Source: an uncultured Bacilli bacterium
GTDB taxonomy: Bacteria; Bacillota_I; Bacilli_A; RF39; UBA660
Length of the DNA: 64,000 nucleotides
Direction: 5' to 3'
Assembly: GCA_947586825.1 (NCBI GenBank)
Contig: CANPXU010000001.1
Location: forward strand, 11,815-75,814
Below the pieces are notes generated by a model. It worked only from the letters and a program-made list of their open reading frames with translations. It ran no database searches and was not told the DNA's origin. Below are positions 35,314-50,201 of this stretch, piece by piece (position 1 is the first letter of the stretch; every line of letters starts with the position of its first letter). The position numbers were made by a program, and so were the translations under genes.

Positions 35314-35388
35314 GCAGGTGTAGTACAGCGGTTAGTATGTGGCCTTGCCAAGGCTAAGACGGCGGTTCGATTCCGCTCACTTGCTCCA
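35314..35388 (+). tRNA. tRNA-Gly (anticodon GCC), CCA encoded
   Basis: Manual cloverleaf. Acceptor GCAGGTG/CACTTGC, D stem GTAC/GTAT, anticodon stem TGGCC/GGCTA with loop TTGCCAA, 4-nt variable loop, T arm GGCGG-TTCGATT-CCGCT, discriminator U, then CCA. Confidence 0.9.
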
Positions 35389-35399
35389 ATAAAAACACT

Positions 35400-35429
35400 G
35401 AAATCCCTTAAAATAAGGGATTTCTTATT
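35400..35429 (+). terminator. Intrinsic terminator after tRNA-Gly
   Basis: Perfect 10-bp stem GAAATCCCTT / AAGGGATTTC (35400-35424) with a 5-nt loop, followed by TTATT. Confidence 0.6.
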
Positions 35430-35637
35430 ACTTTAAATTCAAAATTACCAACATTTTTACCACATTTTCATCTATTACATGGTAATTTTGTGGTAATTTT
35501 TTAATAAGAAAAGAAAAGTATAAAAATATTTGTAATTATCTAACAATACCTCCCTATAGATAATCTCTATCTAATATAAGTGCAACAAATTTATTTATAT
35601 TTTTCCATAAACGTAATTAGTAAAAAAAGATGACCTA

Positions 35638-36666
35638 TTATTTTAAGTCATCTTTTTTAGAAAAGTTTATATTAAATCTATTACCATCAAGGTAAAAAGC
35701 AAAAGGATATATGACCTTTTTTTCATTTACTAAATCTTCTTGTTTAATATCTATTATTCTTTCAATTGTAGGACTTGTATTAACAGTTACCATTTTAGCT
35801 TTGACTGTTTTTACAAATAAAGAAGCATTTTCAGAAGATGATGTAAAAATTGCGGAACTATATCCTGCTCCATTGTAGTTAATTTGAGCGATAGCCTCAA
35901 GAATATCATCAACAATAATAGCATTAGGATAATCTACATTAACATTTTTATTTATATAAACTTCTATATTTAACCCAGTATTTATTATCTTGTTTATAAA
36001 ATCTATATGATTGTTATCTTCGATATAAATTTCAAAGTTTTCATAGCCACTTACTATCGTTTTATTTTTAGTTTTATTTAATATCATATGTTGTAGACTA
36101 TGACTACCAATACAAACCACTAAATCAATATTAGCAAAATTAGCTAATAATTCATCAAAGTTTTCCGAAATATATATTTGCACTAAGTATTTTGATATAT
36201 TAAATTCTTCCAAAACACTTTGTACTATTTGAACTAATAATTGATTGGTACCATACATATATCCTGAATTAGAAAGAATTAATGTATTTCCTGAGATAAT
36301 ATTTCTAATTATCATCTCAATTACAACATAGGGATTACCATCATTAATAACAACTACATTACCAATATCCATTATCTGGGTGCCAAAAGTAAGTTTTTTT
36401 GTTTCATCTTTTTGTAAAACTTTAACATCACCATAAAAGGTATTTTCTTTTTCCAGATTAGAGAATATTTTTTTAACAATATTAAAATCCATTGTAAAGC
36501 CATTATTATTTCTTTTATCAATTGCATTGGCTTCTTTTATGATGGTTTCATTACTTTCTATAGCTTTTTTTATTTGAGGTACTATTAATTTAACATTTTT
36601 AATTAATAAATCTTTTTCTACTTGAAGAGCATTAGCTATTATTTTATTAATATCATTATCTTCCAT
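35638..36666 (-). CDS. ProA-like (gamma-glutamyl-phosphate reductase/ALDH fold) protein lacking the catalytic-Cys segment
   Basis: 342 aa. Colinear with ProA blocks as I recall E. coli ProA: IGNVVVINDGNPYVVIEMIIRNIISGNTLILSNSG ~ [31 protein letters not shown], and AIAQINYNGAGYSSAIFTSSSENASLFVKTVKAKMVTVNTSPT ~ AIAHIREHGTQHSDAILT..A.RF...VDSSAVYVNASTRF. The ..STCN..ETLLV block is absent. The start overlaps the upstream gene by 11 nt. Confidence 0.55.
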   Translation of the reverse strand: MEDNDINKIIANALQVEKDLLIKNVKLIVPQIKKAIESNETIIKEANAIDKRNNNGFTMDFNIVKKIFSNLEKENTFYGDVKVLQKDETKKLTFGTQIMDIGNVVVINDGNPYVVIEMIIRNIISGNTLILSNSGYMYGTNQLLVQIVQSVLEEFNISKYLVQIYISENFDELLANFANIDLVVCIGSHSLQHMILNKTKNKTIVSGYENFEIYIEDNNHIDFINKIINTGLNIEVYINKNVNVDYPNAIIVDDILEAIAQINYNGAGYSSAIFTSSSENASLFVKTVKAKMVTVNTSPTIERIIDIKQEDLVNEKKVIYPFAFYLDGNRFNINFSKKDDLK

Positions 36667-39600
36667 TATTAATACCCCTTTCTATATCCATTTCATCAGT
36701 TAGGCTAATAGCTTTAGCATACATTTCTTGAGCTTGGCTATCAAGTGATGATATATCAACATCTTTGTCTTTGGCTATTTGATCTAAAGCAAGTCTTATT
36801 TGCATTATGACCTGACTTGCAATATCCATTTGTTGCATACCATTATCAACTTTAATATTAAATAATAAATCCGCTATTTTAAGTTTATCCCCGTTTATAT
36901 CATATATAATGGCAAAGTTAGGATTCATAACAATTCGAGCTGTATTAGGATTTAAGCCATAATTTCTAGCAAGTTCTGTGACAATATGTTTAGTATCAGC
37001 ATATTCGCCAAGGTTGGTTTCTAAATAGTTTGGATTATTCTTAGTTACTAATTCTAATTTTTCTAAAGTAAGTAAAGATTTTTCCGTAAATGTTTCATCA
37101 GTATACTCAATAAAGGTATCACTATGAACTGATAAAGTTTCTCCACTGTAAGCTTTTCTATCATCACGCTCTTCTAAAATATATTGGGTTGAAGAATCAT
37201 TTGTATATAATCCTCGTGATAGTTTTACAGGTTCACTAAATGAAAGTGGTCTACTTACAATACTAGTATCAACTTTAGAATTAGCTTTTAATGACTCGGC
37301 AATATCATTATAACCTAAGCCAACGGTTATTTTACCTAGCCTTAGGCCTTCATATTGCTCTTCCGTTATCATGCCTGCTTCAAGAAGGCTTTTATAAACT
37401 TCTTCATCCGCAGCCATTAAATCTTGAGCAGCTTGTTTATATATTTGGAAAATTTCATCAGTAAAACCTTTTCTGCCTAATTCTGGATGTTCTCTATCGG
37501 CTCTAGTAAATGCCTTATCAGGAATTTCAATATTATCAAAACATAGTACATCTTTATTACGCCATACCCAGCTTTGAGCAACAATGTTTCCTTGGCTATC
37601 TCTAATTACAAATACCCTACCATTTTTATCAACCATACTATGTTCCATACAAACCTCAGCACAGTTATTTAACTCTTGGCAACAATCGGTTAATGTTCCT
37701 ATAGCCATAGCAAGAGGATCATCTAAACGTAATATTTCATATGTATAATCACCACTTACCTTTTTAGTATTTTGGCTAATACGAGGAATACTACTAAATA
37801 CTCTTTGCTTACCATAGTTATATATTTGTTGTAGAACATTAAAATCATATTGGCTATAACCCGCGATAGCTGATATTTCAGCAACTTTCTCATTACCCAC
37901 ATTAACGGAAGTATATTTATTAGATTGAATAAAGCTAATTGCTAAATCTAAAGTTAAGACTCTATTACTATTAATAGCTTTTATTTCTGAAAATTGTTTT
38001 TGAATATTAGCAATAAAGCTTATATATTCAGGATTATCTAATATTTCGTCTATATTTTGGAGTAAGAATTCTCTAAAGTCAGGATCATATTTTAATTCAA
38101 AACCACCAAATAATTGATGGGCTTTATTAGGACTTAAAACAGGAACATCAGGATATACTCCAAGCATGCTTCTTATAATATCAGTAGATTTAGGATAACT
38201 TTGGGTATTAATAGTTAAGACATATGTTCCATCGGGCTTTTTGTGATATATTTGACTAAATAATTCTTTATCATTATCAATAGAAAAGCCTTCGGCAATA
38301 AGTGCTTCTTTTAATTTAAGATATTGCTGACAATCTAAAGGCATTTCTGCTCCGGGAGCCAACCCCTTTATTTTCTCTTCGATATGACATAACTCATTGA
38401 TAACATGTTCACAATTAGGTTTTAGATTTCTTGGTAAACTTGTTAATAAATTTTGAAGTTTTTTAAAACCTTTTTGATCTTGATCAAAAGCCCCGAATGA
38501 ATAACCTAATTTAAGCATAGCTTCTCTAGCTTCTTTAGAACTTGCAAAGCTTTTGATTCGCATTAAGTTACTCCAGTTAGAGGCTGAATTCAAAAACTTG
38601 TCAGCATCTTCCAAAGGGAAATTTTGCATAACAACAAAATCAGGAATAAACTTTCTTCCCGTCTTGTCATACCATTTTTTCATAGTCGCTACATTATGGG
38701 CTTTCATCATTTCCATTACAGTTTCAGAGCGACTAATTCCTAACTTAAGAGCTTTTTCTTCTCCGAATAAATTAATAAAATCGATTAAATCTTGTTTTAA
38801 ATAATTACATCTAAGTAAAGAAGAAATTAAAGCTTTACCCTCTAAAAAAGGTAACCATTCCTTATGCTTTTGTAAAACATCAAAGGACAAAGGATAATTA
38901 TTTCCACAGTTATAAAAGAATAATTTTAATTCTTCAGGAGCATCATTACTTAAAAATAATTCTGGATGTCTACTAGAAAGGAAACCTGGAGCATCCTCAG
39001 GTTGATAATCAAGATTACCATTTATACTTTCTCTAATAATAAGATTTTCTATTCTTTTAGCTATAGCTTCAATAGTTAATTCGTTTTGGGTATTAGTATC
39101 AAAACATTTACCATCTTTTATGGTAATTTCTCCATTAAGTAGTTGGAAAATACTATCCATATATCTACCATATTCAGCACATAGTTTTAAAAAGCTGTCA
39201 TTATCAAAAGCATTTAATAAAATAAGATTCCCTGTTGAAAGATTATAAGTATTATTTGATGGATCATTTCTATTACCAAAGGCTACCCATAGATTCTTAT
39301 CTTTTAAAATAGTCATTAACTCAGGATGCTTTTTTATATCATCAAAAGTCATATTTCGATTATAAAAAGCATTAGTTAATCTCATTCTTTCATTCGAAGG
39401 AATATTTACTAAAGAAGAAAGATTAATAAATAGTTCTGGATAAGCATAAACAAACTCAGGAACTTGTGTTAGATAAGCATACTCAACTTTACCACTTACA
39501 ATTTTATTATAAACACTCTTTTTAATGGCACTTTCAATTTTATTTTCATCATCTAATTCATTTTTAGCAATCGTAATAGTTAAATCAGAAAGAACATCAC

Positions 39601-41485
39601 CATATTTAACACATAAACTCAAAAATTTTTCATTGCCATATCTTTTTGTATATTCTTCGATAAAATTCAAAGTTTCTTCTTTTTCAGAATCAGTTATGAC
39701 TAACTTCATATCAGCTTTAATAGTCTGAGCTAAATTTCGATTCACAAGAAAAGGTATATAATCATAATGATTATATAAAAGCTTAGGACTAAGATTATTA
39801 GAGTAAAAAGCTTTTCTTAACTCTTCAGGAGCATTTAAATCCATAAACATATCTGGATGTTTATCTCTAAAACTACCTCGTATCCAATCATAATTAACAG
39901 GCTTAATATTAGAGCCTTCATTTCTTATATAGCCTATGAATTTAGCAAACATATTGGCAAATTCTTCATAAGAAAGATGACCTCGTTGAAAGTTTATACC
40001 ATATTTTTTAAATGCTGTTAAATGGCCATTTGAATAGTGATAGCCAAGAGGACTAAGTGCCTCTAACTCTTGAGACCATTCATAGTCTTTATGAGTAAAG
40101 AATCCTGTTTCTGCCTCGAAAAGGCGGATATTTTCTATACCGAAATTATCCACAATCATTCTTTGTTCTTTATCAATAATACATGTATGGTCATTATATT
40201 GTAATAATTCTTCCCATGTATCTATTTTATTAACAAAAGTAAAATTCATAGATTTAAGCCAGTCCATACTATTAAGTGTATCTAAAGATGGCGTGGAAGA
40301 AACAAATAGATATTCTTTAACGGCTTTAACAAACGATGTTTCTAAATCTTTATCTTTCATTAAAAATTGACTTAAAGAATAAAAATCATTAGCATCAGCT
40401 ATATGTGTAAATACATCAGCATGTCTTTGAACAAGCTTTTGAAATTCGCCTAGGCCATAGTTATCCCTTGCAAAAGTTGCCACATAAGAGGAATTATAGT
40501 TTAGAAAATAATCAATAGGAATCGAAGCAAAAGCATCAGCATAGGTAATTATATCTTGAATAGTTAAATCATGTGCAAAATATCTTTGTTTTACATCATC
40601 TGGTATATTAACATTCAATAAAAATATATCAGCATTTTCTTTAATAAATATATCAGGATATAAATCCACATTAATTTTTCGACTAGAATTAATTATTTTT
40701 TGCCGAGCAAAAGCAAAACATCTACTTTTTATTTCTGTTACAGGGCATACTTTAATTTGCTCTTTTAACTCGTCATAAGAAATACTTGAACTATTAAAAC
40801 GGTAGTCAATACCACCCTCCATATAGATAATTGTATTAATAGCCTCATATTCTTCTTTAGATAATAAGTATAGTTCTACAGCTTTTTTAAGACCTAGTAT
40901 TCCAATTAACTGTACTTCATTATTATGATAATTAATATGAGAATTTAAGTCTTTTGCAGCAACTTCACTTAACTGTTCTGAAGTTAAAGAAGCAAAGTCA
41001 CTAATAGTTAACATTCCTTGATAATATTTAGCTTTAAATTCTTCACTAAAGCTATCTGATAGAAATAAGGAAGCATTTGCTTCAATGGTTTCTTCATCAA
41101 AGTCTTTAACATTGAGTTTTCTTCCTAGTTTGCTAAGATTTCTTACATTACAGCCATGAAAATTACCATGGCCGGTATACTCTACTAAAGCAAAATCAAT
41201 ATTAGCTTTAGTATTAGAAAAATCTATAGGACGGGATTCATCAGCGACAATCGACATTCCTTCCCAAGCTTCAAAAGGAATATCGCTTAAATCATAACGT
41301 AATAAAGTGTTTTGTAAAGCTATATAGTCATTAATAGTTTGTTCTTCCAAAGCGCTATCATCAAAACCAGGATCATCTTTATGAGCATCATAAAAATCGT
41401 CATAGTCTTTAACTAACTTACTTAATTGGCTTTTTATTTGATTGAATTGTTCTAAAGTCATCTTTGGAAACATTTTATACACCAT
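36656..41485 (-). CDS. Giant (1609 aa) cytoplasmic repeat-containing protein of unknown function
   Basis: Long uninterrupted ORF. No signal peptide, TM segment or Walker motif seen. At least five copies of a motif ..F(L/M)..(N/S)..(P/S)(E/D)E(L/F/V)(K/R)..(F/Y)Y...(L/M)(T/S)..D.. . A Cys-rich module TDCCQELNNCAEVCMEHSM starts at aa 1266. Confidence 0.6.
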   Translation of the reverse strand: MVYKMFPKMTLEQFNQIKSQLSKLVKDYDDFYDAHKDDPGFDDSALEEQTINDYIALQNTLLRYDLSDIPFEAWEGMSIVADESRPIDFSNTKANIDFALVEYTGHGNFHGCNVRNLSKLGRKLNVKDFDEETIEANASLFLSDSFSEEFKAKYYQGMLTISDFASLTSEQLSEVAAKDLNSHINYHNNEVQLIGILGLKKAVELYLLSKEEYEAINTIIYMEGGIDYRFNSSSISYDELKEQIKVCPVTEIKSRCFAFARQKIINSSRKINVDLYPDIFIKENADIFLLNVNIPDDVKQRYFAHDLTIQDIITYADAFASIPIDYFLNYNSSYVATFARDNYGLGEFQKLVQRHADVFTHIADANDFYSLSQFLMKDKDLETSFVKAVKEYLFVSSTPSLDTLNSMDWLKSMNFTFVNKIDTWEELLQYNDHTCIIDKEQRMIVDNFGIENIRLFEAETGFFTHKDYEWSQELEALSPLGYHYSNGHLTAFKKYGINFQRGHLSYEEFANMFAKFIGYIRNEGSNIKPVNYDWIRGSFRDKHPDMFMDLNAPEELRKAFYSNNLSPKLLYNHYDYIPFLVNRNLAQTIKADMKLVITDSEKEETLNFIEEYTKRYGNEKFLSLCVKYGDVLSDLTITIAKNELDDENKIESAIKKSVYNKIVSGKVEYAYLTQVPEFVYAYPELFINLSSLVNIPSNERMRLTNAFYNRNMTFDDIKKHPELMTILKDKNLWVAFGNRNDPSNNTYNLSTGNLILLNAFDNDSFLKLCAEYGRYMDSIFQLLNGEITIKDGKCFDTNTQNELTIEAIAKRIENLIIRESINGNLDYQPEDAPGFLSSRHPELFLSNDAPEELKLFFYNCGNNYPLSFDVLQKHKEWLPFLEGKALISSLLRCNYLKQDLIDFINLFGEEKALKLGISRSETVMEMMKAHNVATMKKWYDKTGRKFIPDFVVMQNFPLEDADKFLNSASNWSNLMRIKSFASSKEAREAMLKLGYSFGAFDQDQKGFKKLQNLLTSLPRNLKPNCEHVINELCHIEEKIKGLAPGAEMPLDCQQYLKLKEALIAEGFSIDNDKELFSQIYHKKPDGTYVLTINTQSYPKSTDIIRSMLGVYPDVPVLSPNKAHQLFGGFELKYDPDFREFLLQNIDEILDNPEYISFIANIQKQFSEIKAINSNRVLTLDLAISFIQSNKYTSVNVGNEKVAEISAIAGYSQYDFNVLQQIYNYGKQRVFSSIPRISQNTKKVSGDYTYEILRLDDPLAMAIGTLTDCCQELNNCAEVCMEHSMVDKNGRVFVIRDSQGNIVAQSWVWRNKDVLCFDNIEIPDKAFTRADREHPELGRKGFTDEIFQIYKQAAQDLMAADEEVYKSLLEAGMITEEQYEGLRLGKITVGLGYNDIAESLKANSKVDTSIVSRPLSFSEPVKLSRGLYTNDSSTQYILEERDDRKAYSGETLSVHSDTFIEYTDETFTEKSLLTLEKLELVTKNNPNYLETNLGEYADTKHIVTELARNYGLNPNTARIVMNPNFAIIYDINGDKLKIADLLFNIKVDNGMQQMDIASQVIMQIRLALDQIAKDKDVDISSLDSQAQEMYAKAISLTDEMDIERGINNGR

Positions 41486-41581
41486 CCTAAATGTATATAC
41501 TCTCTTATATTAGAGTAGCATTTATTTAACTAGTTTTAGTATTTATAATTAAAATTTTACAATATATTTTACGCATATAAA

Positions 41582-43693
41582 TTAAAGTTTTTGGCCTCCA
41601 GGAGCATCATTTTTTAAACCCTCTTTTATTTTACTTAGTCTATCCCTTTCTTGTTGGAGTTTTTCAGTATCAGCACATACCCATCCAGGATTATTACGTG
41701 TTAAATTATAAAGGATAGCACTAATATCGCCACAATATTTTTCTTGACCTTCCCATAATAAAACTTCTTCGATAAATTGCCTAACCGGAATACTGATGCC
41801 ATTTGCTAAAATTACTTTTCCATCCATAGGAATGTAGGGAGCATAAATTTCTTCGATATATTTTTTAGCACTTACTTGCGTTCCATCAGGAAGATTTATC
41901 ATTTTATCTAGAAGATCAGGATTAATATATTTAGTGATATCTAAAGGGTTTATCTCAAGAGTTTGGCCTTGAATTTGCAAAGTAATAACTCCCATGTTGT
42001 TTTGCGTTTTATCCATTAAGTATCTAGGTAAATCACCATTATATTTTTCTTGGCATTCAAATAAGATACCCTCTTCTATAAATTGTTTAATAGGAAGCAG
42101 TTCTCCATCATTTAAGATAACAATTCCATTTGCTGGTAAACGAGGAAAAACCATTTGCTTTATATACTCTGCCGCGGACATAACTGAGCCATCAGGCATT
42201 GTTATTTGTCTTTGTAAAAGAGCGCTATTTATTATGCTTAGGAAGTTTTCATCATCAAGATGCGTCTTATCAAGTTCTTTATTAGCTATATTTTTAACTT
42301 GTTTTTCATTTTCTTCGAAAGCATTAATTTTTTCTGTAGCCTTTATATCAAAACAAAATTTATTATCATCTATACCAAATGATTTAGCATTTGTTTTGAT
42401 ACTATTTTGAACTTTGGCTATAAAATCAGGGCTATTTTTAGAAATAAAGCCTGCCATTTGTTTAATAACTTGCTCTAAAGTAGAACCATTAAATACTATT
42501 TCTTTGCCACTTTTAACGGGAATATGGACGTCATCATTATTTGTATAAGTTTTATTAGCTAATTTTTCAAGAAGTGAAGGAATATGTCCTTTAATACTTT
42601 GATATATCATTTCTCTAAAAGATGAAGAATGTACATCTTGTAAGGAATAACCAAAATGCTCATCTATATTTTGGTAATCAACTTCTCCACCTTTTAAATG
42701 TCTTTTATCAGATTCAACCCTAGACAAATACTTTCTCTCTAAACTATTTAAAAACATTTCAACTGCTTTTAAAGTTACAAATTCAGTAAAAGTCATATTT
42801 CTTCCCTGATATTTTATTTGTAAACCAGTATTTTGAATAAAATCGATAGTTTCTCTTCTTATTGCATTTTCTAAAAGCTCAGCTCTTACGCCATTAAAGG
42901 ATCTTGACTTACCATCAGGTGTTGGTTCTGGCTCAGAGCCATAGCCAATCCAACCATCAATTTTACCAGTGAGAATCGGAGGCTCTTTGATTCTAGCTAC
43001 AACATCAGGATGTTCTTTTTTGATTGCTTCTAAAATTTTTAAATATTCATCAAATTCTTCAGTTGGTAAATATATGACAATAGTATCATCACGGTTAGCA
43101 TAAAGATCGAACTTAAAATAATAAGGTAAGTGATGTTCATCAAATTTCTCTACTAGAAATGTAATCATTTTATACGTATCTAAAGATTCAGTATTTATAT
43201 ATAATCTATGGTCAGCTTTAGGATATTTATCCTTTTTAGCAGTTAGATATCTTGAGCATACATGAACCCAGCCACTGCCTTCGCCAAAAGAACGCCAACT
43301 ATAATGCTCTAAAGCTTTTTCTAATTCTTTATCACCCTTTGGGCCATAGAAAACTTCATTAGCTTCTTTCATAGTAGTTACATCAGGAACACCTTTTAAA
43401 TATTTTCGCATTTTAATAAAGTCTTGGCCATAACTTCCTTGACGATATAACTCAATAAATTCTTCTCTAGTCATGGCTAAAATGCTATTTTTCCACTTAT
43501 TAAAAAGCATAGCGTGGAATCTATCACCATCTTGAGCATAATATTCCCCCTTAGTATGTTCTTTTGTTACCATATTAGTTAACTTAGAATAATATGCTCC
43601 TTCGCTAGTAACATAGGCATGTATTAGCTTTTCTATTACTTTAGGATCATCTATTGGATTTGCCACTTGATTATATAATTCGTTTAGTTTCAT
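41582..43693 (-). CDS. Uncharacterised 703-aa protein with internal C-terminal tandem duplication
   Basis: aa 160-210 (HRLYINTES..YYFKFDLYANRDDTIVIYLP) are reminiscent of the R.Y.N...K(F/V)...R.D..V.Y pattern of HopA1/LanKC-lyase-like domains. This is my recollection only. aa ~485-567 and ~588-670 are clear repeats of each other. Confidence 0.5.
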   Translation of the reverse strand: MKLNELYNQVANPIDDPKVIEKLIHAYVTSEGAYYSKLTNMVTKEHTKGEYYAQDGDRFHAMLFNKWKNSILAMTREEFIELYRQGSYGQDFIKMRKYLKGVPDVTTMKEANEVFYGPKGDKELEKALEHYSWRSFGEGSGWVHVCSRYLTAKKDKYPKADHRLYINTESLDTYKMITFLVEKFDEHHLPYYFKFDLYANRDDTIVIYLPTEEFDEYLKILEAIKKEHPDVVARIKEPPILTGKIDGWIGYGSEPEPTPDGKSRSFNGVRAELLENAIRRETIDFIQNTGLQIKYQGRNMTFTEFVTLKAVEMFLNSLERKYLSRVESDKRHLKGGEVDYQNIDEHFGYSLQDVHSSSFREMIYQSIKGHIPSLLEKLANKTYTNNDDVHIPVKSGKEIVFNGSTLEQVIKQMAGFISKNSPDFIAKVQNSIKTNAKSFGIDDNKFCFDIKATEKINAFEENEKQVKNIANKELDKTHLDDENFLSIINSALLQRQITMPDGSVMSAAEYIKQMVFPRLPANGIVILNDGELLPIKQFIEEGILFECQEKYNGDLPRYLMDKTQNNMGVITLQIQGQTLEINPLDITKYINPDLLDKMINLPDGTQVSAKKYIEEIYAPYIPMDGKVILANGISIPVRQFIEEVLLWEGQEKYCGDISAILYNLTRNNPGWVCADTEKLQQERDRLSKIKEGLKNDAPGGQKL

Positions 43694-43702
43694 TTAGACC
43701 TC

Positions 43703-44218
43703 TTATTCATGATTTGTTACTTTTTTGCTTTCTTCATCGATTATATTTTTAAAATCTAAAAGTTCACTTATTATGTCAAATTCTTTTATACACTCATCAT
43801 AAGTTCCTACGATTTTAAAATGATTATTATAAGTTAATTCCCAGTAAGTATAACATTCAGGCTCTGCTTCATTAAAATAATTATTTTTTAAATCTCTTAA
43901 ATCATACTCCTCAATCTTTTTTATAAGATCATCGGCATTATCTAAAGTTTCTGAATGCTTATTAGTAAGATAAGTTTTACCATCTTCCAAACTTATATAA
44001 GTACGGCTAATAGTCTTTTGCCAATGGCATATATTTTGTATATGGTCATAGGCAGAAGTAAGTTCAATACTAGTACTTACGGGTTTACCAGGATAGATTT
44101 CTCCTGAAAACCAATGAAAATGCTCTAATTTTAACTGATTAATCTTAAAGGCATCTCTTTTTGTTTTAATTTCTATATTATCAATGGCATTTTGAAAATC
44201 ATCAAACTCACTATTCAT
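43703..44218 (-). CDS. Hypothetical protein (first gene of the orphan operon)
   Basis: 171-aa ORF with RBS GGAGAAG. 9-nt gap to the next gene. No recognised motif. Confidence 0.45.
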   Translation of the reverse strand: MNSEFDDFQNAIDNIEIKTKRDAFKINQLKLEHFHWFSGEIYPGKPVSTSIELTSAYDHIQNICHWQKTISRTYISLEDGKTYLTNKHSETLDNADDLIKKIEEYDLRDLKNNYFNEAEPECYTYWELTYNNHFKIVGTYDECIKEFDIISELLDFKNIIDEESKKVTNHE

Positions 44219-44280
44219 ATAACTTCTCCACTATTATAATTATAACATTATTTTAAGTAAGTTTTATTAATTAGTAAATA

Positions 44281-44309
44281 TTGACTTGTTAACCCCTTTT
44301 TGCTAGAAT
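44281..44309 (+). promoter_or_regulatory. Sigma-A-type promoter for 44339-45587
   Basis: TTGACT (44281-44286) - 17 nt ending in TGC - TAGAAT (44304-44309). RBS AGAAAGG lies before ATG 44339. Confidence 0.55.
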
Positions 44310-44338
44310 ATTTCCAACAATTTAGAAAGGCATAAATA

Positions 44339-45409
44339 ATGACAAAAGTTACGTTAGATACTTCAATTTCTGCAATTGAGGAAATAGATGAGAAATCAAA
44401 AGCATATTTGGCAAGTGAACATATAAACACTTTAGGAGAACTACTTATGTATAATCCTTTTGCTTTATATAGACGCTTAAGTGGTGCATTTGAAAAAGCT
44501 ACTATAACAGATAGTATTCATAAGATGGGATTTGTTTTTGTAAGTGAGGATGGTTTCCTAGAACAATTAAGAGCTCACCTTCTTAAGAAATATAACATAA
44601 CTAATTTTAATTTAAGTACTTTTTCAACTACTGAAAAAAGTGCATTACTTGATTATAAATTATATGAATTACTAGCTTTCTTACCTGACAATAATGGTCG
44701 TAATTTTGCTAGTTTCTGTGTTGAGGCTAAATACTCTTCCCTTACGTTACAAGAAGCTTTAGCTCATGGTCATGTTAATAAGAAAAATACCTTCCTTTAT
44801 AATGAGCAATTAACTTCTTGGTATGGTTATATCAGAAGTCTAGGTTTTGAATTTAGTGAAAATGAAGATTATGAAGCCCAAATGAGTGAACTAACTAAAG
44901 CTAAAGAAAGTGCTAAAAAAGATGGTAGCTATGATTTAGATACTAAAATTCAAACATTAAATACTTTTGTTAGAATTTTCCGTAAAGGTGAAGAATTAAG
45001 TTCTAAAGATATATCAGAACTTATTGACATTAAAGGTTTATTGACCTTAAGAGATATTATATGTATTGATGATGAATATTATAGTAAATTACCTGAAGAT
45101 CTATTAGCAAGAATAAAAAGATTCTTAAACACGGTAGATATTCCCTTTATAGGAGATGAGAACTTTGCCGAATTTAAGAAGCAAGCCCAAGCAGGAGCTG
45201 AAATTCTAAATAGAGCTGAAGCTGTTAGTACGAGAACAAAAATCAAGCAAAGATTTAATTATTTAAGCGAAAAAGCTACTGACCTAATGGAGAAAGTAGC
45301 CATTTTAGAGTATGATAACTATTCACTTGATAAGATTAATATTCTTTTAACTGACCTAATTGAGGAACTTGAAGATATTAAAAGCCAAGCTCAATTTAGA
45401 GGACAATAA
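44339..45409 (+). CDS. Hypothetical protein, helical; C-terminal coiled coil
   Basis: 356-aa ORF divergent from the orphan operon. No recognised catalytic motif. Confidence 0.45.
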   Translation: MTKVTLDTSISAIEEIDEKSKAYLASEHINTLGELLMYNPFALYRRLSGAFEKATITDSIHKMGFVFVSEDGFLEQLRAHLLKKYNITNFNLSTFSTTEKSALLDYKLYELLAFLPDNNGRNFASFCVEAKYSSLTLQEALAHGHVNKKNTFLYNEQLTSWYGYIRSLGFEFSENEDYEAQMSELTKAKESAKKDGSYDLDTKIQTLNTFVRIFRKGEELSSKDISELIDIKGLLTLRDIICIDDEYYSKLPEDLLARIKRFLNTVDIPFIGDENFAEFKKQAQAGAEILNRAEAVSTRTKIKQRFNYLSEKATDLMEKVAILEYDNYSLDKINILLTDLIEELEDIKSQAQFRGQ

Positions 45410-45410
45410 G

Positions 45411-45587
45411 ATGGATTCAGAAGAATTAAATTATACCGACATAGAAAAAGAACTTGATGCTTTAGAAGATACCATTTCACATCTTGAAGAAAAAATAAAG
45501 GCCTTAGAAGAAGCCAAGAAAGCTAAAGCTAAGCAAGCCGAAGAATTACTTGCAGAATATAATGAATTAAAAAAAGAAGCTAATTGA
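45411..45587 (+). CDS. Small coiled-coil protein
   Basis: ATG at 45411 lies 1 nt after the upstream TAA stop (MDSEELNY..). 58 aa, E/K/A-rich. The ORF-track start 45360 overlaps the previous gene and is less likely. Confidence 0.4.
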   Translation: MDSEELNYTDIEKELDALEDTISHLEEKIKALEEAKKAKAKQAEELLAEYNELKKEAN

Positions 45588-45617
45588 AGAAGATTCAGAA
45601 GATTAGCTTCTTTTTTA
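45575..45617 (+). terminator. Intrinsic terminator (10-bp perfect stem)
   Basis: AGAAGCTAAT (45575-45584) and ATTAGCTTCT (45602-45611) followed by TTTTTT. Sits between convergent genes. Confidence 0.55.
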
Positions 45618-46235
45618 TTTAAAAAATAAAGGTCTATCTTTTAATAAAACTCTTGATTTTATTTCATTTATCTCATTTTCAAATTTTCTTTCCTCGCTAG
45701 AACTAAAAAGAAGAGGTCTTTCATCAACTTCAAAAGTTTTACTACTATCTCTATAAACTAAAGGTGAAGAATCATAAATATGCCAATCCATTAAGTAGTA
45801 ATTAAAGAATCTTACGTGTGGATTAGGACACGTAGTAGTGATAGCCTCTCGCATTACAACTTCGACTTTGTCAAAACCTAGAACTGATACCATGAAATCA
45901 GCATATAAGTTATAGCGAGAAAATTCATACTTTTCCAACCATATTTTAAATAATGCTAATTGTTCTGGAGTAAGCATTGAAGTGCAATATTCATCAATGT
46001 CCTGCCTTTCCCCGGTGAAATTATAATCTCTTTTAAATTCCTCAAAAAATTCAACATAATGAGAAAAGCCATTCCCATACTTGATGTCATTTAATAAAGA
46101 ATAGTTTTCTCCTACGCAGTAATTATAAGCAAAGTTTTCGTGTGTTCCAAAAGTAAAAAGCATTTGTCCATCAGGTTTTATAAATGCTCCGCCATTTTCA
46201 CATATTTTTTCATTAAAAGGAAGAATTAAACTCAT
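45615..46235 (-). CDS. Hypothetical cytoplasmic protein
   Basis: 206-aa ORF. No recognised motif. Confidence 0.45.
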   Translation of the reverse strand: MSLILPFNEKICENGGAFIKPDGQMLFTFGTHENFAYNYCVGENYSLLNDIKYGNGFSHYVEFFEEFKRDYNFTGERQDIDEYCTSMLTPEQLALFKIWLEKYEFSRYNLYADFMVSVLGFDKVEVVMREAITTTCPNPHVRFFNYYLMDWHIYDSSPLVYRDSSKTFEVDERPLLFSSSEERKFENEINEIKSRVLLKDRPLFFK

Positions 46236-47325: not shown

Positions 47326-49635
47326 CTACCAAGAGCCTCCTCCGCCTCCACCGGAACCTCCGCCAGAGAAACCGCCACCAGAAGATCCAGACGAACCAGA
47401 ACTACTAGGGCTTGATGACATTGCCGCTTGGGCAGATGTCATAGTCGAATTCAAAAAGCTATTAAATCTTATTAAATCAAATGTATCAGGACCATCATAC
47501 CATGTAGGAGCCTGCATAGATATTGACTCAAAATTCTTTATCCATTTATCAGAAACTCCTAAGACATAAGTATATGGTAAGATATCATAAAAATATGTAG
47601 GTTGTTCATTTACTAAAGCTTCTAACTTTTCTTTTTCGGCAGTTTCAAGGAAGTTTTTAAAACCTCTTAATTTACCAAGAACTTCGTTTCCATAAGGGGT
47701 TCTTTTTGGTAAATAATTTAATAAAACTAACATTAAAACTATGCATATTACTCCTATTACATAGGCTGATATATAAAGTAAGTCATTACTAATCGCCGGA
47801 TAAACAATATTTACCCAAGGAATGACAATGAATGATCCACCCCAGATAAAAAAGAATATTTTAAGAAAAATATTAGCTCCATCAAAGGTACTAGATAAAC
47901 CATAGCAAAGAATAAAAACGGCAACTACAAACACAAGGGCAAAAGGACTAATTATTGCCATCAATGTTGGAAAAAAGCCATTATAAGCTGCCTGTGGAGG
48001 AATTGTTATAGCTAAAAATGCTATAATAACAAGAAGTATAACATACTTGATTTTACCCGTGGCTTTTTTATCAAATATTTTTTGCTTATTTTCTTTAGAA
48101 TTTTCGTTCTTCTTAATTTCATTCATCGTTTTATAAAAACTATCATATAAGTCTGATGATGTTACTTCCAAAGGCATTGTTTCATCTTTCTTATTTTTGG
48201 CATTTTTAAATAAGCCTTCTAAGAATAGTTTTTCATTTTCATCAGTTCCATCATAGTCTTTTATCTTTGTGATTTTAAATTCTTTACTCTTTGATAAAAT
48301 ACCTTTTTCTTCCGTTTCCGTAATTTTTATATAACCTTTATTAGCTAGATAGATAAGTAGTGATGTTACATCTTCAGAATCTGCTCTACCCTTATATAAA
48401 AAGCCCACATCCAAGCTATTGCAATTTTCCGGAGGTCGGAATTCTACCGTTTCTATAGCTTCATCATCACGGCCAAATTTATACCAAAAAACAAAGGAAA
48501 TAATAAGACCTAAAACAGGAACGACAAACATTGAATAATCAAGAATGTTATATTCAAGACCAGCATTTTGAAAATAGCCATCCTCAAGTTCACATCTTAC
48601 AGTTAAAGCTTCCTGTGGATTTAATACATCATAATAGCTACCTGTTATTAGATTATCATCTACAAAATAATATACTTGAACATTACTTGTAGAGCCTCTT
48701 TTTCCTGAAGAAAATCCTAACTTAGATTCATCAAAATCTTTAGGCATTTTAATCTTAAATGTTACATTTTTAATAATGGTATCTTCCCATTCTGTACCTA
48801 TTAAGTTAAAATATAATTCATCGGCATCTTTTATAGGATCCTTACCAATATTATAAGTATACTCTATAACATAGGTTTGTTTTCCTGTTACAGTAGTCCC
48901 TGATGAACCCATTTTTATCTCATAATAACCTTCCGTTTTATAAGCTGAATATTTGCCATCTACTTTTAGATTAGTTACTTGAGCTCTATTTTTAGAACTA
49001 GTTCCATCAAGTCTTTCAACAGTATTTTTAAGCGGTATCTTACGATATATACCATGTTTAGGAACATTAAAATAAACTGTTATAGTTTCTTTAATATCAA
49101 AAGTATTATTCTCATTAACAGTCATTTCAATATCATAATTATCTATGACATATTCATATTTTTTATCTTGCTCATCTTCAGGAACATATTCATCATCAAT
49201 ACCTGAAAGATCAGTTTTCATAACTGAAGTAATCTCAATATTGAAATAAGTAATATCTTCCAAGGTATAACCATCCTCTAAAGAATCTTCACTTAGTAAA
49301 AAATCAGCAAAATCATAATCATTTGCATATATATTTTTAACATCAAGATAAGAAGTTATTTCCTTATAATTTTCATCATAGTAACTAATCCTAAATAAAA
49401 TCGATACATCATAGTCATTATAGTTACCCACAAAGCCTCTTAAGCCAAAAGAAGAAGGTTCTTCATAATCTAAAGAGTCAAAATAAACATTAGTAATATC
49501 AATATTATCTTGCTCTATCTTAGATACTGAATCGTATACTGAAGTATATTCTTCTTTTGCCAAAGGGGTTTCTAAAGCCAAAGAAAAAGAAAAAACTAGT
49601 AAAAAAACATAAATTAATCTTTTAATTATTTTCAT
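47326..49635 (-). CDS. DUF2207-family membrane protein with Gly/Ser-rich C-terminal tail
   Basis: 769 aa. Signal peptide, a large extracellular domain, several TM segments, and tail SSGSSGSSGGGFSGGGSGGGGGGSW typical of the family. Adjacent to lemA. Confidence 0.7.
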   Translation of the reverse strand: MKIIKRLIYVFLLVFSFSLALETPLAKEEYTSVYDSVSKIEQDNIDITNVYFDSLDYEEPSSFGLRGFVGNYNDYDVSILFRISYYDENYKEITSYLDVKNIYANDYDFADFLLSEDSLEDGYTLEDITYFNIEITSVMKTDLSGIDDEYVPEDEQDKKYEYVIDNYDIEMTVNENNTFDIKETITVYFNVPKHGIYRKIPLKNTVERLDGTSSKNRAQVTNLKVDGKYSAYKTEGYYEIKMGSSGTTVTGKQTYVIEYTYNIGKDPIKDADELYFNLIGTEWEDTIIKNVTFKIKMPKDFDESKLGFSSGKRGSTSNVQVYYFVDDNLITGSYYDVLNPQEALTVRCELEDGYFQNAGLEYNILDYSMFVVPVLGLIISFVFWYKFGRDDEAIETVEFRPPENCNSLDVGFLYKGRADSEDVTSLLIYLANKGYIKITETEEKGILSKSKEFKITKIKDYDGTDENEKLFLEGLFKNAKNKKDETMPLEVTSSDLYDSFYKTMNEIKKNENSKENKQKIFDKKATGKIKYVILLVIIAFLAITIPPQAAYNGFFPTLMAIISPFALVFVVAVFILCYGLSSTFDGANIFLKIFFFIWGGSFIVIPWVNIVYPAISNDLLYISAYVIGVICIVLMLVLLNYLPKRTPYGNEVLGKLRGFKNFLETAEKEKLEALVNEQPTYFYDILPYTYVLGVSDKWIKNFESISMQAPTWYDGPDTFDLIRFNSFLNSTMTSAQAAMSSSPSSSGSSGSSGGGFSGGGSGGGGGGSW

Positions 49636-49652
49636 AATAGTTTATTCCTTTA

Positions 49653-50201
49653 TTAAAATTCAACTTTAACGTTTTGTCTTTCAGCTTCTTCAGCTTGGAA
49701 CATAGCTTTTGGTTTAAAGCCAAATAGTTTAGCTACGATATTGCTAGGTATTACTTGAACTTTATTGTTATAACTTCTAACAACACCATTATAGTATTTT
49801 CTAGAGTTAGCTATATCTTCTTCAACTTTAGAAAGTTCATTTGTTAAATCACTAAAGTTTTGACTAGCTTTTAAATCTGGATAAGCTTCTGCTAAAGCCA
49901 TAATCTTATTAATACCATTAGAGATTTTTTCGTTAGCACTAATCTTTTCATCGCTAGACATATTATCATAAGCACTATTTCTAAGCTCTACGATTTCTTT
50001 AAATGTTTCTGATTCATGTTTAGTATAACCTTTAACAGTTTCAATTAAGTTAGGAATTAAATCCCATCTTTTCTTAAGATATACATCCATAGTAGAGAAA
50101 GCTTCTCCAACTTTATTTCTTAATTTTACTAAACTATTATAGCAAACAAGAACATAAAGAATAATTAAAACAATTATGGCGATTAAAATATAAACCCACA
50201 T
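49653..50201 (-). CDS. lemA: LemA family protein
   Basis: 182 aa. N-terminal TM segment followed by YNSLV.LRN.V.EAFS..DV.LKRR.DLIPNL. Confidence 0.8.
   Translation of the reverse strand: MWVYILIAIIVLIILYVLVCYNSLVKLRNKVGEAFSTMDVYLKKRWDLIPNLIETVKGYTKHESETFKEIVELRNSAYDNMSSDEKISANEKISNGINKIMALAEAYPDLKASQNFSDLTNELSKVEEDIANSRKYYNGVVRSYNNKVQVIPSNIVAKLFGFKPKAMFQAEEAERQNVKVEF

What the first reader, a model, noticed from the sequence alone, without database searches (positions are those of the whole stretch)
35389..46235. Block of cytoplasmic orphan genes next to tRNA-Gly, centred on a four-gene operon (171 aa - 703 aa - 1609 aa - ProA-like 342 aa)
Ten kb immediately downstream of tRNA-Gly(GCC) encode seven proteins. 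For five of them I recognise no domain at all. None has a signal peptide, TM segment or P-loop that I could see. This contrasts with the envelope and housekeeping genes on both sides. Genes 43703-44218, 41582-43693, 36656-41485 and 35638-36666 are co-oriented with a 9-nt gap, a 96-nt gap and an 11-nt overlap. A divergent pair (44339-45587) has its own strong promoter, and a further orphan lies at 45615-46235. A 1609-aa NTPase-free repeat protein coupled to an apparently inactivated ALDH-fold protein does not match any system I know. It does not resemble a defence, secretion, toxin or biosynthetic system. This is the best candidate here for an undescribed functional module.
Basis: inference. 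Interest (0 to 1): 0.75.

Follow-up and report, generated by a model that had tools for sequence, protein, structure and literature searches.

The report
Mobile giant transferase with dead-ProA partner
The ten-kilobase block is not one four-gene operon but a patchwork of independent small modules, and its core is an undescribed, widespread and sometimes mobile gene pair in gut bacteria: a 1609-residue helical scaffold ending in an acetyltransferase-like enzyme head, coupled to a proline-pathway enzyme that has lost its catalytic site.

Summary
All seven genes evolve under purifying selection. None has a TM segment or P-loop. The "four-gene operon" is not a conserved unit. Across 37 species-level loci, only the 1609-aa gene (BIG) and the ALDH-like gene stay together, and their ORFs overlap in 31 of 33 scorable non-redundant loci. 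The 171-aa and 703-aa genes form a second, independent pair. The 356-, 75- and 206-aa genes are near-species-level orphans. BIG is not enzyme-free: an alpha-solenoid scaffold (residues 1-891) carries a head with GNAT topology and an almost invariant CCQ / QSWxWxN / CFDNxE signature. Paralogues keep the scaffold but carry a Pol-beta nucleotidyltransferase head and have no ALDH partner. The partner is ProA-derived and has lost the catalytic-Cys segment family-wide. In 8 loci the pair lies next to a large serine recombinase. Precise insertions split murA or an ABC ATPase gene, and the smallest insert (7.9 kb) holds only recombinase, BIG and ALDH. No library or paper describes this module. My best reading (confidence about 0.4) is a mobile conflict or accessory system that covalently modifies a target. 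Function is unproven.

The parts
35314..35388 (+). tRNA-Gly(GCC). It borders the block but gives no evidence of being an integration site here.
   Evidence: ARAGORN and Rfam. The tRNA 3' end is not repeated anywhere in the window.
35400..35424 (.). Bidirectional terminator-like hairpin between the tRNA and the 3' end of the ALDH-like gene.
   Evidence: Consensus scan, 11-bp stem on both strands.
35638..36666 (-). ProA-derived pseudoenzyme (342 aa), the obligate partner of BIG. ALDH fold retained, catalytic-Cys segment deleted, ProA motifs degenerate.
   Evidence: PF00171 27.3 bits. NF001221 68 bits against a cut-off of 289. Alignment to P5CS/ProA structures skips about 70-85 residues that carry the Cys. 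Its ORF overlaps the BIG 3' end in 31 of 33 non-redundant loci. It is 60-74% identical across species.
36656..41485 (-). BIG, 1609 aa: N-terminal alpha-solenoid scaffold plus C-terminal GNAT-fold head.
   Evidence: 117 homologue clusters. 504 representative clusters for the scaffold. AF2 models with pLDDT 88 for both halves.
38813..41485 (-). BIG scaffold, residues 1-891. It has a near-invariant N-terminal segment (about residues 60-180) and at least 4 repeats of the motif 'LFL..DAPEELK..FY'. It is shared with the NTase-headed paralogues.
   Evidence: BLASTP boundary at residues 5-891. Repeat motif positions 140, 287, 546 and 843. Foldseek finds only generic HEAT/importin-like matches with E about 1.
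36659..38812 (-). BIG head, residues 892-1609: helical linker, GNAT-fold core and a C-terminal beta-rich subdomain.
   Evidence: AF2 model. Foldseek PDB top hits are all GNATs (NatD prob 0.98, GCN5 prob 0.99). Best BFVD hit is a phage protein at E=7e-11.
37526..37684 (-). Signature of the head: CCQ (C1268, C1269, Q1270), QSWxWxN (1304-1310) and CFDNxE (1315-1320) on the predicted alpha1-alpha2 loop and strands beta3 and beta4.
   Evidence: Invariant in alignment A4, including the cyanophage homologue. All three motifs are present in 183 of 186 head-bearing proteins.
41582..43693 (-). 703-aa protein with a HopA1/LanY-like (pSer/pThr-lyase-type) domain and two about 100-aa C-terminal repeats. 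It belongs to an independent pair.
   Evidence: PF17914 at residues 161-286. More than 695 homologue clusters. Internal DNA repeat D1. Invariant R163/K194/R201/Y208, compared with CaoY residues in PMC9486802.
43703..44218 (-). 171-aa partner of the 703-aa gene, with no recognisable domain.
   Evidence: 56-59% identical 183-aa homologue directly upstream of the 703-aa homologue in L046 and L047.
44281..44309 (+). Sigma-70-like promoter (TTGACT-17-TAGAAT, extended TG) in front of the 356-aa gene.
   Evidence: Consensus scan. Such sites are not enriched over shuffles.
44339..45409 (+). 356-aa species-level orphan with a coiled-coil C-terminus.
   Evidence: No Pfam match at E<=5 beyond coiled-coil noise. 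Its cluster has only 3 members. No metagenome relatives. dN/dS 0.07.
45360..45587 (+). 75-aa coiled-coil ORF overlapping the 3' end of the 356-aa gene by 50 nt.
   Evidence: ORF list. Conserved in L006 with dN/dS 0.17, based on only 11 substitutions.
45615..46235 (-). 206-aa orphan.
   Evidence: No family hits. One weak relative in L027 (29% identity). dN/dS 0.25.

Best explanation
The block is a mosaic of independently distributed accessory modules in an uncultured gut Bacilli (RF39-like) genome. Its core is a two-gene, translationally coupled module. The first gene encodes a giant cytoplasmic protein whose N-terminal alpha-solenoid (residues 1-891) most likely acts as a recognition or assembly scaffold. 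Its C-terminal GNAT-fold head, with the invariant CCQ / QSWxWxN / CFDNxE signature, most likely transfers an acyl group onto a macromolecular or small-molecule target. The second gene encodes a ProA-derived pseudoenzyme that has lost its catalytic cysteine. It most likely serves as an obligate structural or regulatory, possibly nucleotide- or acyl-ligand-binding, subunit of the head. The pair moves between genomes as the sole cargo of small large-serine-recombinase elements. I therefore infer that it is a conflict or accessory system (defence against, or competition among, mobile elements) rather than housekeeping. Shown: conservation of the pair, domain architecture, head swapping, loss of the ProA active site, and precise recombinase-mediated insertions. 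Inferred: acyl-transfer chemistry, complex formation with the partner, and the conflict role. The 171+703-aa pair (LanY/HopA1-type lyase-like) and the 356/75/206-aa orphans are separate neighbours, not parts of this module.
For: Pair conservation: BIG and ALDH-like are adjacent in every non-redundant locus where the flank is captured (33 downstream, 31 of them overlapping), and L045 has the partner upstream. Flanking genes are otherwise non-syntenic between clades. Architecture: AF2 pLDDT is 88 for both halves. The DSSP order of the head core, beta1-alpha1-alpha2-beta2-beta3-beta4-alpha3-beta5-alpha4-beta6, matches GNAT topology, and all top PDB Foldseek hits are GNATs. The signature is invariant out to a cyanophage homologue and is kept in 183 of 186 proteins, including all tandem copies. 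Modularity: 35 of the 150 best scaffold relatives carry a Pol-beta NTase head instead (GSTGRGTNKPGDGDFDF motif) and have no ALDH partner; one has a Phosphodiest partner instead. Pseudoenzyme: the catalytic-Cys segment is deleted in both near and distant copies and the ProA motifs are degenerate, yet identity is 60-74% and dN/dS is 0.22. Mobility: a large serine recombinase lies within 3 kb in 8 loci, in at least 3 recombinase lineages. Insertions are precise: into murA at the catalytic-Cys motif (L004) and into an ABC ATPase gene (L043, L023, L032, L041). Intact homologous sites exist in L046 and L014. Duplicated core sequences and inverted element ends are present. The L023 insert is 7,874 bp, holding only recombinase + BIG + ALDH. 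L013 adds a Mob/Pre-like gene.
Against: There is no experimental or expression data. PADLOC and PHROGs give no hit. GNAT similarity is structural only (Foldseek E 0.03-0.1). No Pfam GNAT family matches even at E<=5, and a canonical Q/RxxGxG/A CoA loop is not evident. In the window itself there is no recombinase and no att-like repeat. Many loci have the pair in stable chromosomal contexts. BIG is under very strong purifying selection (dN/dS 0.06). The family is widespread in one lineage. All of this would also fit a lineage-specific cellular function. Tandem arrays (L003, L024, L026) show BIG copies without an adjacent ALDH gene within the captured sequence.
Confidence: 0.4

Rival explanations
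1. Lineage-specific housekeeping complex. BIG plus the pseudo-ProA form a cytoplasmic enzyme or scaffold needed for normal physiology of RF39-like Bacilli (for example protein or tRNA modification, or envelope precursor acylation). The recombinase-borne copies are occasional captures.
For: Hundreds of clusters, restricted to one gut lineage. Strong purifying selection (dN/dS 0.06). Many loci have no recombinase and show local synteny within sub-clades. The NTase-headed paralogues sit in stable housekeeping contexts: uvrC-mutL, tyrS-pheST.
Against: Flanks are non-syntenic between clades. Recombinase association recurs in 8 loci across at least 3 recombinase lineages. The minimal 7.9-kb element carries nothing else. 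Tandem paralogue arrays and phage-encoded head homologues are atypical for housekeeping genes.
Confidence: 0.27
2. Addiction (toxin-antitoxin-like) module. The GNAT-fold head is a toxin, by analogy with TacT/AtaT-type acetyltransferases. The NTase head of the paralogues would parallel MenT/AbiEii-type toxins. The downstream pseudo-ProA neutralises the toxin and so stabilises the recombinase element.
For: Tight translational coupling. The pair is the sole cargo of a small element. Two alternative heads of enzyme classes that both occur as tRNA-targeting toxins (established knowledge of GNAT and NTase toxins). An NTase head is paired with a phosphodiesterase that could reverse nucleotidylation. 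A PemK toxin gene is nearby in L004 and L051.
Against: A 1600-aa toxin with an 890-aa scaffold is unlike any type II TA. The 'antitoxin' is more conserved than the toxin. Tandem BIG copies lack adjacent partners. There is no RHH or HTH antitoxin-like domain.
Confidence: 0.13
3. Secreted polymorphic toxin or effector with a downstream immunity protein.
For: A conserved N-terminal region with alternative C-terminal enzymatic heads, a tightly linked downstream gene, and tandem arrays.
Against: No signal peptide, TM segment, or LXG/other trafficking domain. Only two head types among the 150 best relatives rather than a diverse toxin repertoire. The head and the partner are the most conserved parts, the opposite of the toxin/immunity diversification pattern.
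Confidence: 0.05
4. One reading: 171 - 703 - 1609 - 342 aa form one four-gene operon acting as a single system.
For: Co-orientation with short gaps in the window and in the same-species contig L006. No terminator-like site on the coding strand was reported in the 96-nt gap.
Against: The 171- and 703-aa genes are absent from all 45 other BIG-bearing loci. They occur as their own pair next to ftsZ/tsaE or in another island, without BIG.
Confidence: 0.05

Closest known systems
GNAT (GCN5-related N-acetyltransferase) superfamily, e.g. NatD, GCN5, SpeG, RimI, FemX
   Same: The predicted head core has the GNAT strand/helix order. GNATs fill the top of the Foldseek PDB list (prob up to 0.99). An invariant acidic residue sits on the predicted beta4 strand (CFDNxE).
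   Different: There is no sequence-level match to any Pfam or NCBIfam GNAT model. The head has its own CCQ/QSWxWxN signature and no clear Q/RxxGxG/A loop. It is embedded in a 1609-aa protein behind an 890-aa solenoid.
ProA (gamma-glutamyl phosphate reductase, ALDH superfamily)
   Same: Clear homology of the N-terminal cofactor domain and the C-terminal segment.
   Different: About 70-85 residues carrying the catalytic Cys are deleted and the conserved motifs are degenerate. The score is far below the equivalog cut-off (68 against 289 bits). There is no proB or proC context. It is always paired with BIG.
Small large-serine-recombinase elements: Tn4451-type integrative mobilizable elements and non-prophage gene-intervening elements such as gin (PMC5704250, PMC5595907)
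   Same: 7.9-10.5 kb elements with one large serine recombinase. Precise insertion inside coding genes with a short shared core. A Mob/Pre-like gene in one case. One insertion lies in a spore-former next to spoIIGA-sigE.
   Different: The cargo is the BIG + pseudo-ProA pair rather than resistance genes or only recombination genes. Excision has not been shown. The window copy has no recombinase.
PcfJ-like proteins (PF14284) of conjugative plasmids and phages
   Same: Several BFVD models annotated 'PcfJ-like' appear among the structural matches (E 4e-3 to 2e-2). There is a superficially similar G..L..[HC]C...G..hhFIR motif. PcfJ lies beside an AcrIIA9-family gene in pCF10 and in a divergent plasmid.
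   Different: The Pfam PcfJ model does not hit BIG. hhalign of a 119-sequence head profile against a PcfJ alignment gives probability 0.1%. BIG is not a member.
HopA1/LanY pSer/pThr lyases (for the neighbouring 703-aa protein)
   Same: PF17914 hit above the gathering score. An invariant R...K...R...Y pattern has spacing like the validated CaoY residues.
   Different: No APH-like kinase partner and no RiPP precursor or cluster. The protein has an extra N-terminal region and two C-terminal repeats. The partner is a 171-aa domain-less protein.

Membership tests
GNAT superfamily | beta1-alpha1-alpha2-beta2-beta3-beta4-alpha3-beta5-alpha4-beta6 fold | tested here: met
   AF2 model with pLDDT 88. 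DSSP elements in model numbering (model residue + 539 = BIG residue): E706-712, H719-726, H738-746, E750-756, E762-771, E774-781, H784-830, E846-850, H857-863, E895-900. All top Foldseek PDB hits are GNATs, prob 0.9-0.99, E 0.03-0.1.
GNAT superfamily | Sequence match to a curated GNAT model | tested here: not met
   No Acetyltransf_* hit in Pfam or NCBIfam, even at E<=5 and for divergent members.
GNAT superfamily | Acyl-CoA pyrophosphate-binding loop (Q/RxxGxG/A) after beta4 | tested here: inconclusive
   Only a conserved G-[RI]-[KR]-x-F-T-D segment follows beta4, within a variable insertion.
GNAT superfamily | Acyl-CoA-dependent transferase activity | not testable with these tools
   Needs biochemistry.
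PcfJ-like (PF14284) | Match to the Pfam model, or a profile-profile match to PcfJ | tested here: not met
   No Pfam hit. hhalign prob 0.3% and 0.1%. The positive control works: pCF10 PcfJ hits PF14284 at 1e-43.
ProA / glutamate-5-semialdehyde dehydrogenase | Score above the equivalog cut-off over the full length | tested here: not met
   NF001221 68 bits against 289; TIGR00407 61.7 against 317.
ProA / glutamate-5-semialdehyde dehydrogenase | Catalytic cysteine segment | tested here: not met
   Alignments to 8j0e, 8zok and 1o20 skip target residues 533-605 and 249-333. Only 20-30 residues remain in the query, and there is no CNA motif.
ALDH superfamily (fold level) | Pfam Aldedh above the gathering score | tested here: met
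   PF00171 27.3 bits against 23.
HopA1/LanY lyase (703-aa protein) | PF17914 above the gathering score | tested here: met
   28.8 bits against 22.7, residues 161-286. Only the 96%-identical same-species homologue (P0118) carries the precomputed PF17914 hit; the listed 727/755-aa homologues do not.
HopA1/LanY lyase (703-aa protein) | Catalytic Arg/Lys/Arg/Tyr, and a partner Ser/Thr kinase | tested here: inconclusive
   Invariant R163/K194/R201/Y208 with CaoY-like spacing, but this comes from spacing, not from an alignment. No kinase domain in the 703-aa or 171-aa proteins.
Known anti-phage defence systems (PADLOC-DB 2.0) | Match of any component to a defence HMM | tested here: not met
   Only noise-level hits.
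Type II toxin-antitoxin with GNAT toxin | Small (about 170 aa) GNAT toxin with an RHH/DUF1778 antitoxin | tested here: not met
   The protein is 1609 aa and the partner is a 342-aa ALDH fold.
Polymorphic toxin systems | N-terminal trafficking or secretion domain and a highly diverse set of C-terminal toxin domains | tested here: not met
   No signal peptide, TM segment or LXG domain. Only 2 head types among the 150 best relatives.
Large-serine-recombinase integrative element | Recombinase gene plus precise insertion with a shared core at both junctions and an empty homologous site | tested here: met
   Met for L004, L023, L032, L041 and L043. Not met for the window copy, which has no recombinase.
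tRNA-linked genomic island | Integrase and a direct repeat of the tRNA 3' end at the far boundary | tested here: not met
   No second copy of the tRNA-Gly 3' end. No boundary repeats. No compositional shift.

The most novel reading that the evidence does not exclude
BIG plus its pseudoenzyme partner define a new class of NTPase-free, mobile conflict systems. A giant alpha-solenoid sensor/scaffold carries interchangeable covalent-modification heads: a new GNAT-fold 'CCQ' acyltransferase, or a Pol-beta nucleotidyltransferase. Each head is controlled by its own dedicated partner: a catalytically dead ProA, or a phosphodiesterase. The systems spread as the sole cargo of minimal serine-recombinase elements that insert into, and could reversibly switch, host genes such as murA.
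Probability: 0.3. Interest if true: 0.85.

Novelty: categorically new. Interest (0 to 1): 0.7.

Why it matters
Uncultured RF39-like Bacilli are common gut inhabitants, and almost none of their accessory biology is understood. This analysis defines a large family (about 500 representative clusters at 50% identity) of roughly 1300-1900-residue proteins. The family has a previously unrecognised enzymatic head, a clear case of a metabolic enzyme (ProA) turned into a pseudoenzyme partner, and natural head swapping. It also defines three-gene serine-recombinase elements with mapped attachment sites. Such elements are useful for understanding gene-interrupting mobile DNA and as compact new integrases. 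If the module proves to be a defence or inter-element conflict system, it would add an NTPase-independent, acyl-transfer-based mechanism to that repertoire. If it proves to be housekeeping, it would reveal a lineage-specific macromolecular modification machine. Either way, the invariant CCQ / QSWxWxN / CFDNxE residues and the partner protein give directly testable handles.

Tried and rejected
- PcfJ membership. I suspected this from a remembered motif and from BFVD hits. It was rejected by the Pfam scan and by two hhalign tests.
- Pentapeptide-repeat identity of the invariant N-terminal segment. There is no Pfam hit and no structural match.
- Phage origin. The first viral scan was negative. 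The head-only scan found only distant cyanophage proteins. The PHROGs library scan gave nothing meaningful.
- Plasmid relatives of the head: none.
- tRNA-linked island: no repeats and no integrase.
- An ALDH-like partner next to the phage homologues, the NTase-head genes or the tandem arrays: none found by HMM.
- A structure model of the 703-aa protein was not attempted, because only three effective sequence groups were available. A profile search of that family against PDB sequences found nothing.
- PDB sequence searches for BIG, for the 703-aa protein and for the NTase head were empty.
- A search for a naturally empty attB of the L043-type species in metagenomes found no exact match, which is uninformative.
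- A search for relatives of the 356-aa orphan in metagenomes found none.
- Literature searches for ProA-like proteins in defence, and for RF39 serine-recombinase elements, returned nothing.

Full report
OBSERVATION. The ORFs and spacings are exactly as reported. On the minus strand: a 171-aa gene (43703-44218), a 9-nt gap, a 703-aa gene (41582-43693), a 96-nt gap, a 1609-aa gene (36656-41485), then an 11-nt overlap with a 342-aa gene (35638-36666). On the plus strand, divergent from these, are a 356-aa gene (44339-45409) and an overlapping 75-aa ORF (45360-45587). A 206-aa gene lies at 45615-46235 on the minus strand. tRNA-Gly(GCC) is at 35314-35388. GC content is about 29% throughout, with no compositional island. 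None of the seven proteins has a TM-like hydrophobic window or a P-loop, whereas the flanking CAP, LtaS and DUF2207 proteins do have TM segments. Comparison with a same-species contig (L006, 95-99% nucleotide identity) gives dN/dS of 0.06-0.25 for every ORF, so all are genuine genes. The window comes from an uncultured rabbit-gut 'Bacilli bacterium' MAG. The relatives are RF39/'Tenericutes'-like gut MAGs.

WHAT IS CONSERVED. I fetched 37 species-level loci and several metagenome contigs that hold homologues of the 1609-aa protein (BIG), and I searched them with eleven window proteins (the seven block proteins plus four flanking ones). Only BIG and the ALDH-like gene recur together. ORF clustering across 47 loci plus the window shows no other gene family in more than 13 loci, and that family is a generic ABC ATPase. 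Flanks are syntenic only within small sub-clades. In 33 non-redundant loci the ALDH-like ORF starts at or inside the 3' end of BIG (31 overlap, 2 have a 2-nt gap). The remaining loci are contig ends, tandem arrays, or L045, where a distant BIG (about 30% identity) has the ALDH-like gene immediately upstream instead. The 703-aa and 171-aa genes are absent from all those loci. They form their own pair (53-59% identity, same order and spacing) next to ftsZ/tsaE in one genome and in a recombinase- and KilA-N-containing island in another. The 356-aa protein belongs to a three-member cluster and has no relatives in the metagenome scan. The 206-aa protein has one weak relative. So the 'four-gene operon' is a juxtaposition of two independent two-gene modules plus orphans.

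THE BIG PROTEIN. Sequence libraries (Pfam, NCBIfam, PADLOC, PHROGs, PDB sequences) give nothing for it, even at E<=5 and for divergent members. BLASTP against divergent relatives splits it into two parts. Residues 5-891 form a scaffold that is also found, at 34-40% identity, in proteins with a completely different C-terminal half. Residues 892-1609 form the head. AlphaFold2 models of both halves are confident (pLDDT 88.4 and 88.0).

The scaffold is an alpha-solenoid with at least four copies of an 'LFL..DAPEELK..FY' repeat and a near-invariant N-terminal segment (about residues 60-180). It has no significant structural neighbour, only generic HEAT/importin-like matches at E about 1.

The head contains a core whose secondary-structure order is that of GNAT acyltransferases. 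Every top PDB match is a GNAT (NatD, GCN5, SpeG, RimI, FemX; probabilities 0.9-0.99, E 0.03-0.1 for this 1070-residue query). Against viral models, the best match is an uncharacterised 656-aa phage protein (E 7e-11). It is followed by phage 'PcfJ-like' proteins and phage GNATs. tblastn and a head-only viral scan find about 656-697-aa proteins of MaMV-like cyanophages that share the core.

The alignment of BIG heads, the distant L045 protein and the cyanophage protein shows an invariant signature: T-x-CCQ (C1268, C1269, Q1270), QSWxWxN (1304-1310) and CFDNxE (1315-1320). These lie on the predicted alpha1-alpha2 loop and on strands beta3 and beta4. All three motifs are present in 183 of 186 head-bearing proteins, including every copy in the tandem arrays. 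This is the pattern expected of an active site.

I tested the idea that the head is a PcfJ domain. pCF10 PcfJ hits PF14284 at 1e-43. BIG does not hit that model, and hhalign of a 119-sequence head profile against a PcfJ alignment gives probability 0.1%. PcfJ membership is rejected.

HEAD SWAPPING. An exhaustive HMM search with a scaffold profile finds 504 representative clusters at E<=1e-3, of which 294 score E<=1e-30. Of the best 150, 92 carry the GNAT-fold head and 35 carry an alternative head with a classic Pol-beta nucleotidyltransferase motif (GSTGRGTNKPGDGDFDF ... GGLGGVGIENW). Another 21 are fragments and 2 are unclassified. The NTase-headed genes lie in stable chromosomal contexts and have no ALDH-like neighbour. 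One is followed after 10 nt by a Phosphodiest/PglZ-like gene. So the ALDH-like partner is specific to the GNAT-fold head.

THE PARTNER. The 342-aa protein is homologous to ProA (PF00171 27.3 bits; NF001221 68 bits against a cut-off of 289). Alignments to solved ProA/P5CS structures cover the cofactor domain (residues 26-229) and a C-terminal segment (250-298). They skip the about 70-85 residues that carry the catalytic cysteine. The same deletion is present in the distant 431-aa copy of L004, so it is ancestral to the family. The ProA motifs (ESRP, KGG, RGS, CNA, NAST) are degenerate, while another set of residues is invariant. The family is abundant (845 clusters) and unusually conserved, at 70-74% identity where BIG is 50-60%. 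I infer that it is a pseudoenzyme kept as a structural or regulatory, possibly ligand-binding, subunit.

MOBILITY. A large serine recombinase lies within 0.3-3 kb of the pair in 8 loci. These recombinases belong to at least three lineages that are only 27-33% identical.

In L004 the segment BIG - ALDH - 55-aa ORF - recombinase interrupts murA exactly at the catalytic-Cys motif (SYPG | CEIGARPIDLH), in a spore-former beside spoIIGA-sigE.

In L043, L023, L032 and L041 the element interrupts an ABC ATPase gene between the signature motif and Walker B. L046 and L014 carry the intact gene. Nucleotide alignment places the insertion at the same point and sizes the inserts at 10,482 bp (L043) and 7,874 bp (L023). 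The L023 insert holds only recombinase + BIG + ALDH. The junctions share a short core (AGAGT[A/T]G / GTTGCT), and the element ends are inverted GTGTCT.../...AGACAC arms resembling the host half-site. L013 adds a Mob/Pre-like gene, as in Tn4451-type mobilizable elements (PMC5704250).

The window copy has no recombinase, no att-like repeats and no tRNA-derived repeat. It appears to be a fixed copy.

THE SECOND PAIR. The 703-aa protein has a HopA1 domain (PF17914, residues 161-286, above the gathering score). HopA1-type proteins such as CaoY/LanY are pSer/pThr lyases that work with an APH-like kinase (PMC9486802). In the 703-aa family, R163, K194, R201 and Y208 are invariant. Their spacing parallels the validated CaoY residues R187, K219, R229 and Y236. 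This is an inference from spacing, not from an alignment. No kinase, RiPP precursor or cluster is present. The 171-aa partner has no domain. The function of this pair remains open.

INTERPRETATION. Shown: (1) a conserved, translationally coupled BIG + pseudo-ProA pair; (2) a scaffold-plus-head architecture with a GNAT-fold head bearing an invariant signature; (3) natural replacement of that head by an NTase together with loss or replacement of the partner; (4) carriage as the sole cargo of serine-recombinase elements that insert precisely into genes. Inferred: the head transfers an acyl group to a target selected by the solenoid, the pseudo-ProA is an obligate subunit or regulator, and the module is an accessory or conflict system. 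The main rival is a lineage-specific housekeeping complex, supported by strong purifying selection and by the many recombinase-free loci. An addiction module and a secreted polymorphic toxin are less likely, for the reasons listed under the rival explanations.

NOVELTY. No library entry or paper describes this pair. The carrier elements are new members of a known kind (large-serine-recombinase integrative or gene-intervening elements; PMC5595907, PMC5704250). The cargo module matches no known system.

VERDICT. Interest 0.7.

Noticed in passing
L004:9423-19488: A 9-kb element (BIG, ALDH-like, 55-aa ORF, large serine recombinase) splits a murA-type gene exactly at the catalytic-Cys motif, in a spore-former next to ftsAZ-spoIIGA-sigE. 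It may be a developmentally excised gene-intervening element of the gin/skin kind.
   Followed up: partly
L003:1335-24761: Six or more tandem BIG paralogues (1291-1586 aa) lie directly after recA, with no ALDH-like gene in the captured sequence. All complete copies keep the CCQ/QSWxWxN/CFDNxE signature.
   Followed up: partly
L051:7001-12877 (also L049, L050): Paralogues keep the BIG scaffold but carry a Pol-beta nucleotidyltransferase head. In L051 the gene is followed after 10 nt by a Phosphodiest/PglZ-like gene, which suggests a different dedicated partner.
   Followed up: partly
L059:15874-17984 and L061:1-1380: In pCF10 and in a divergent E. faecalis plasmid, the PcfJ gene abuts (overlapping it in pCF10) an upstream 'AcrIIA9 family Cas9 inhibitor' gene. 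This places the uncharacterised PcfJ family in an anti-defence neighbourhood.
   Followed up: no
window 41726-41790 and 42032-42096: A 65-nt direct repeat at 75% identity reflects a duplicated C-terminal module of about 100 aa in the 703-aa protein (…LPDG..VSA..YI.E…P.K/RQFIEE…QEKY.GD…).
   Followed up: partly
window 45360-45587: A 75-aa coiled-coil ORF overlaps the last 50 nt of the 356-aa gene in another frame. It is conserved in L006 (dN/dS 0.17), but with only 11 substitutions its coding status is not settled.
   Followed up: partly
window 47326-50201; L046:12152-15210; L004:5854-6384: LemA-family genes (with DUF2207 or DUF3137 partners) recur near these accessory modules in 9 of the sampled loci, including the window. 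This could be synteny or chance.
   Followed up: no
L048:2840-4933; L054:4828-6798: MaMV-like Microcystis cyanophages encode 656-697-aa hypothetical proteins that share the BIG head signature. They have no Pfam domain and no ALDH-like neighbour.
   Followed up: partly
L046:2222-11116: The 183+727-aa homologues of the window's 171+703-aa pair sit in an island with a KilA-N protein and truncated resolvase genes. The island is inserted after the same NMT1-ABC-permease operon that the BIG elements target in other species.
   Followed up: no
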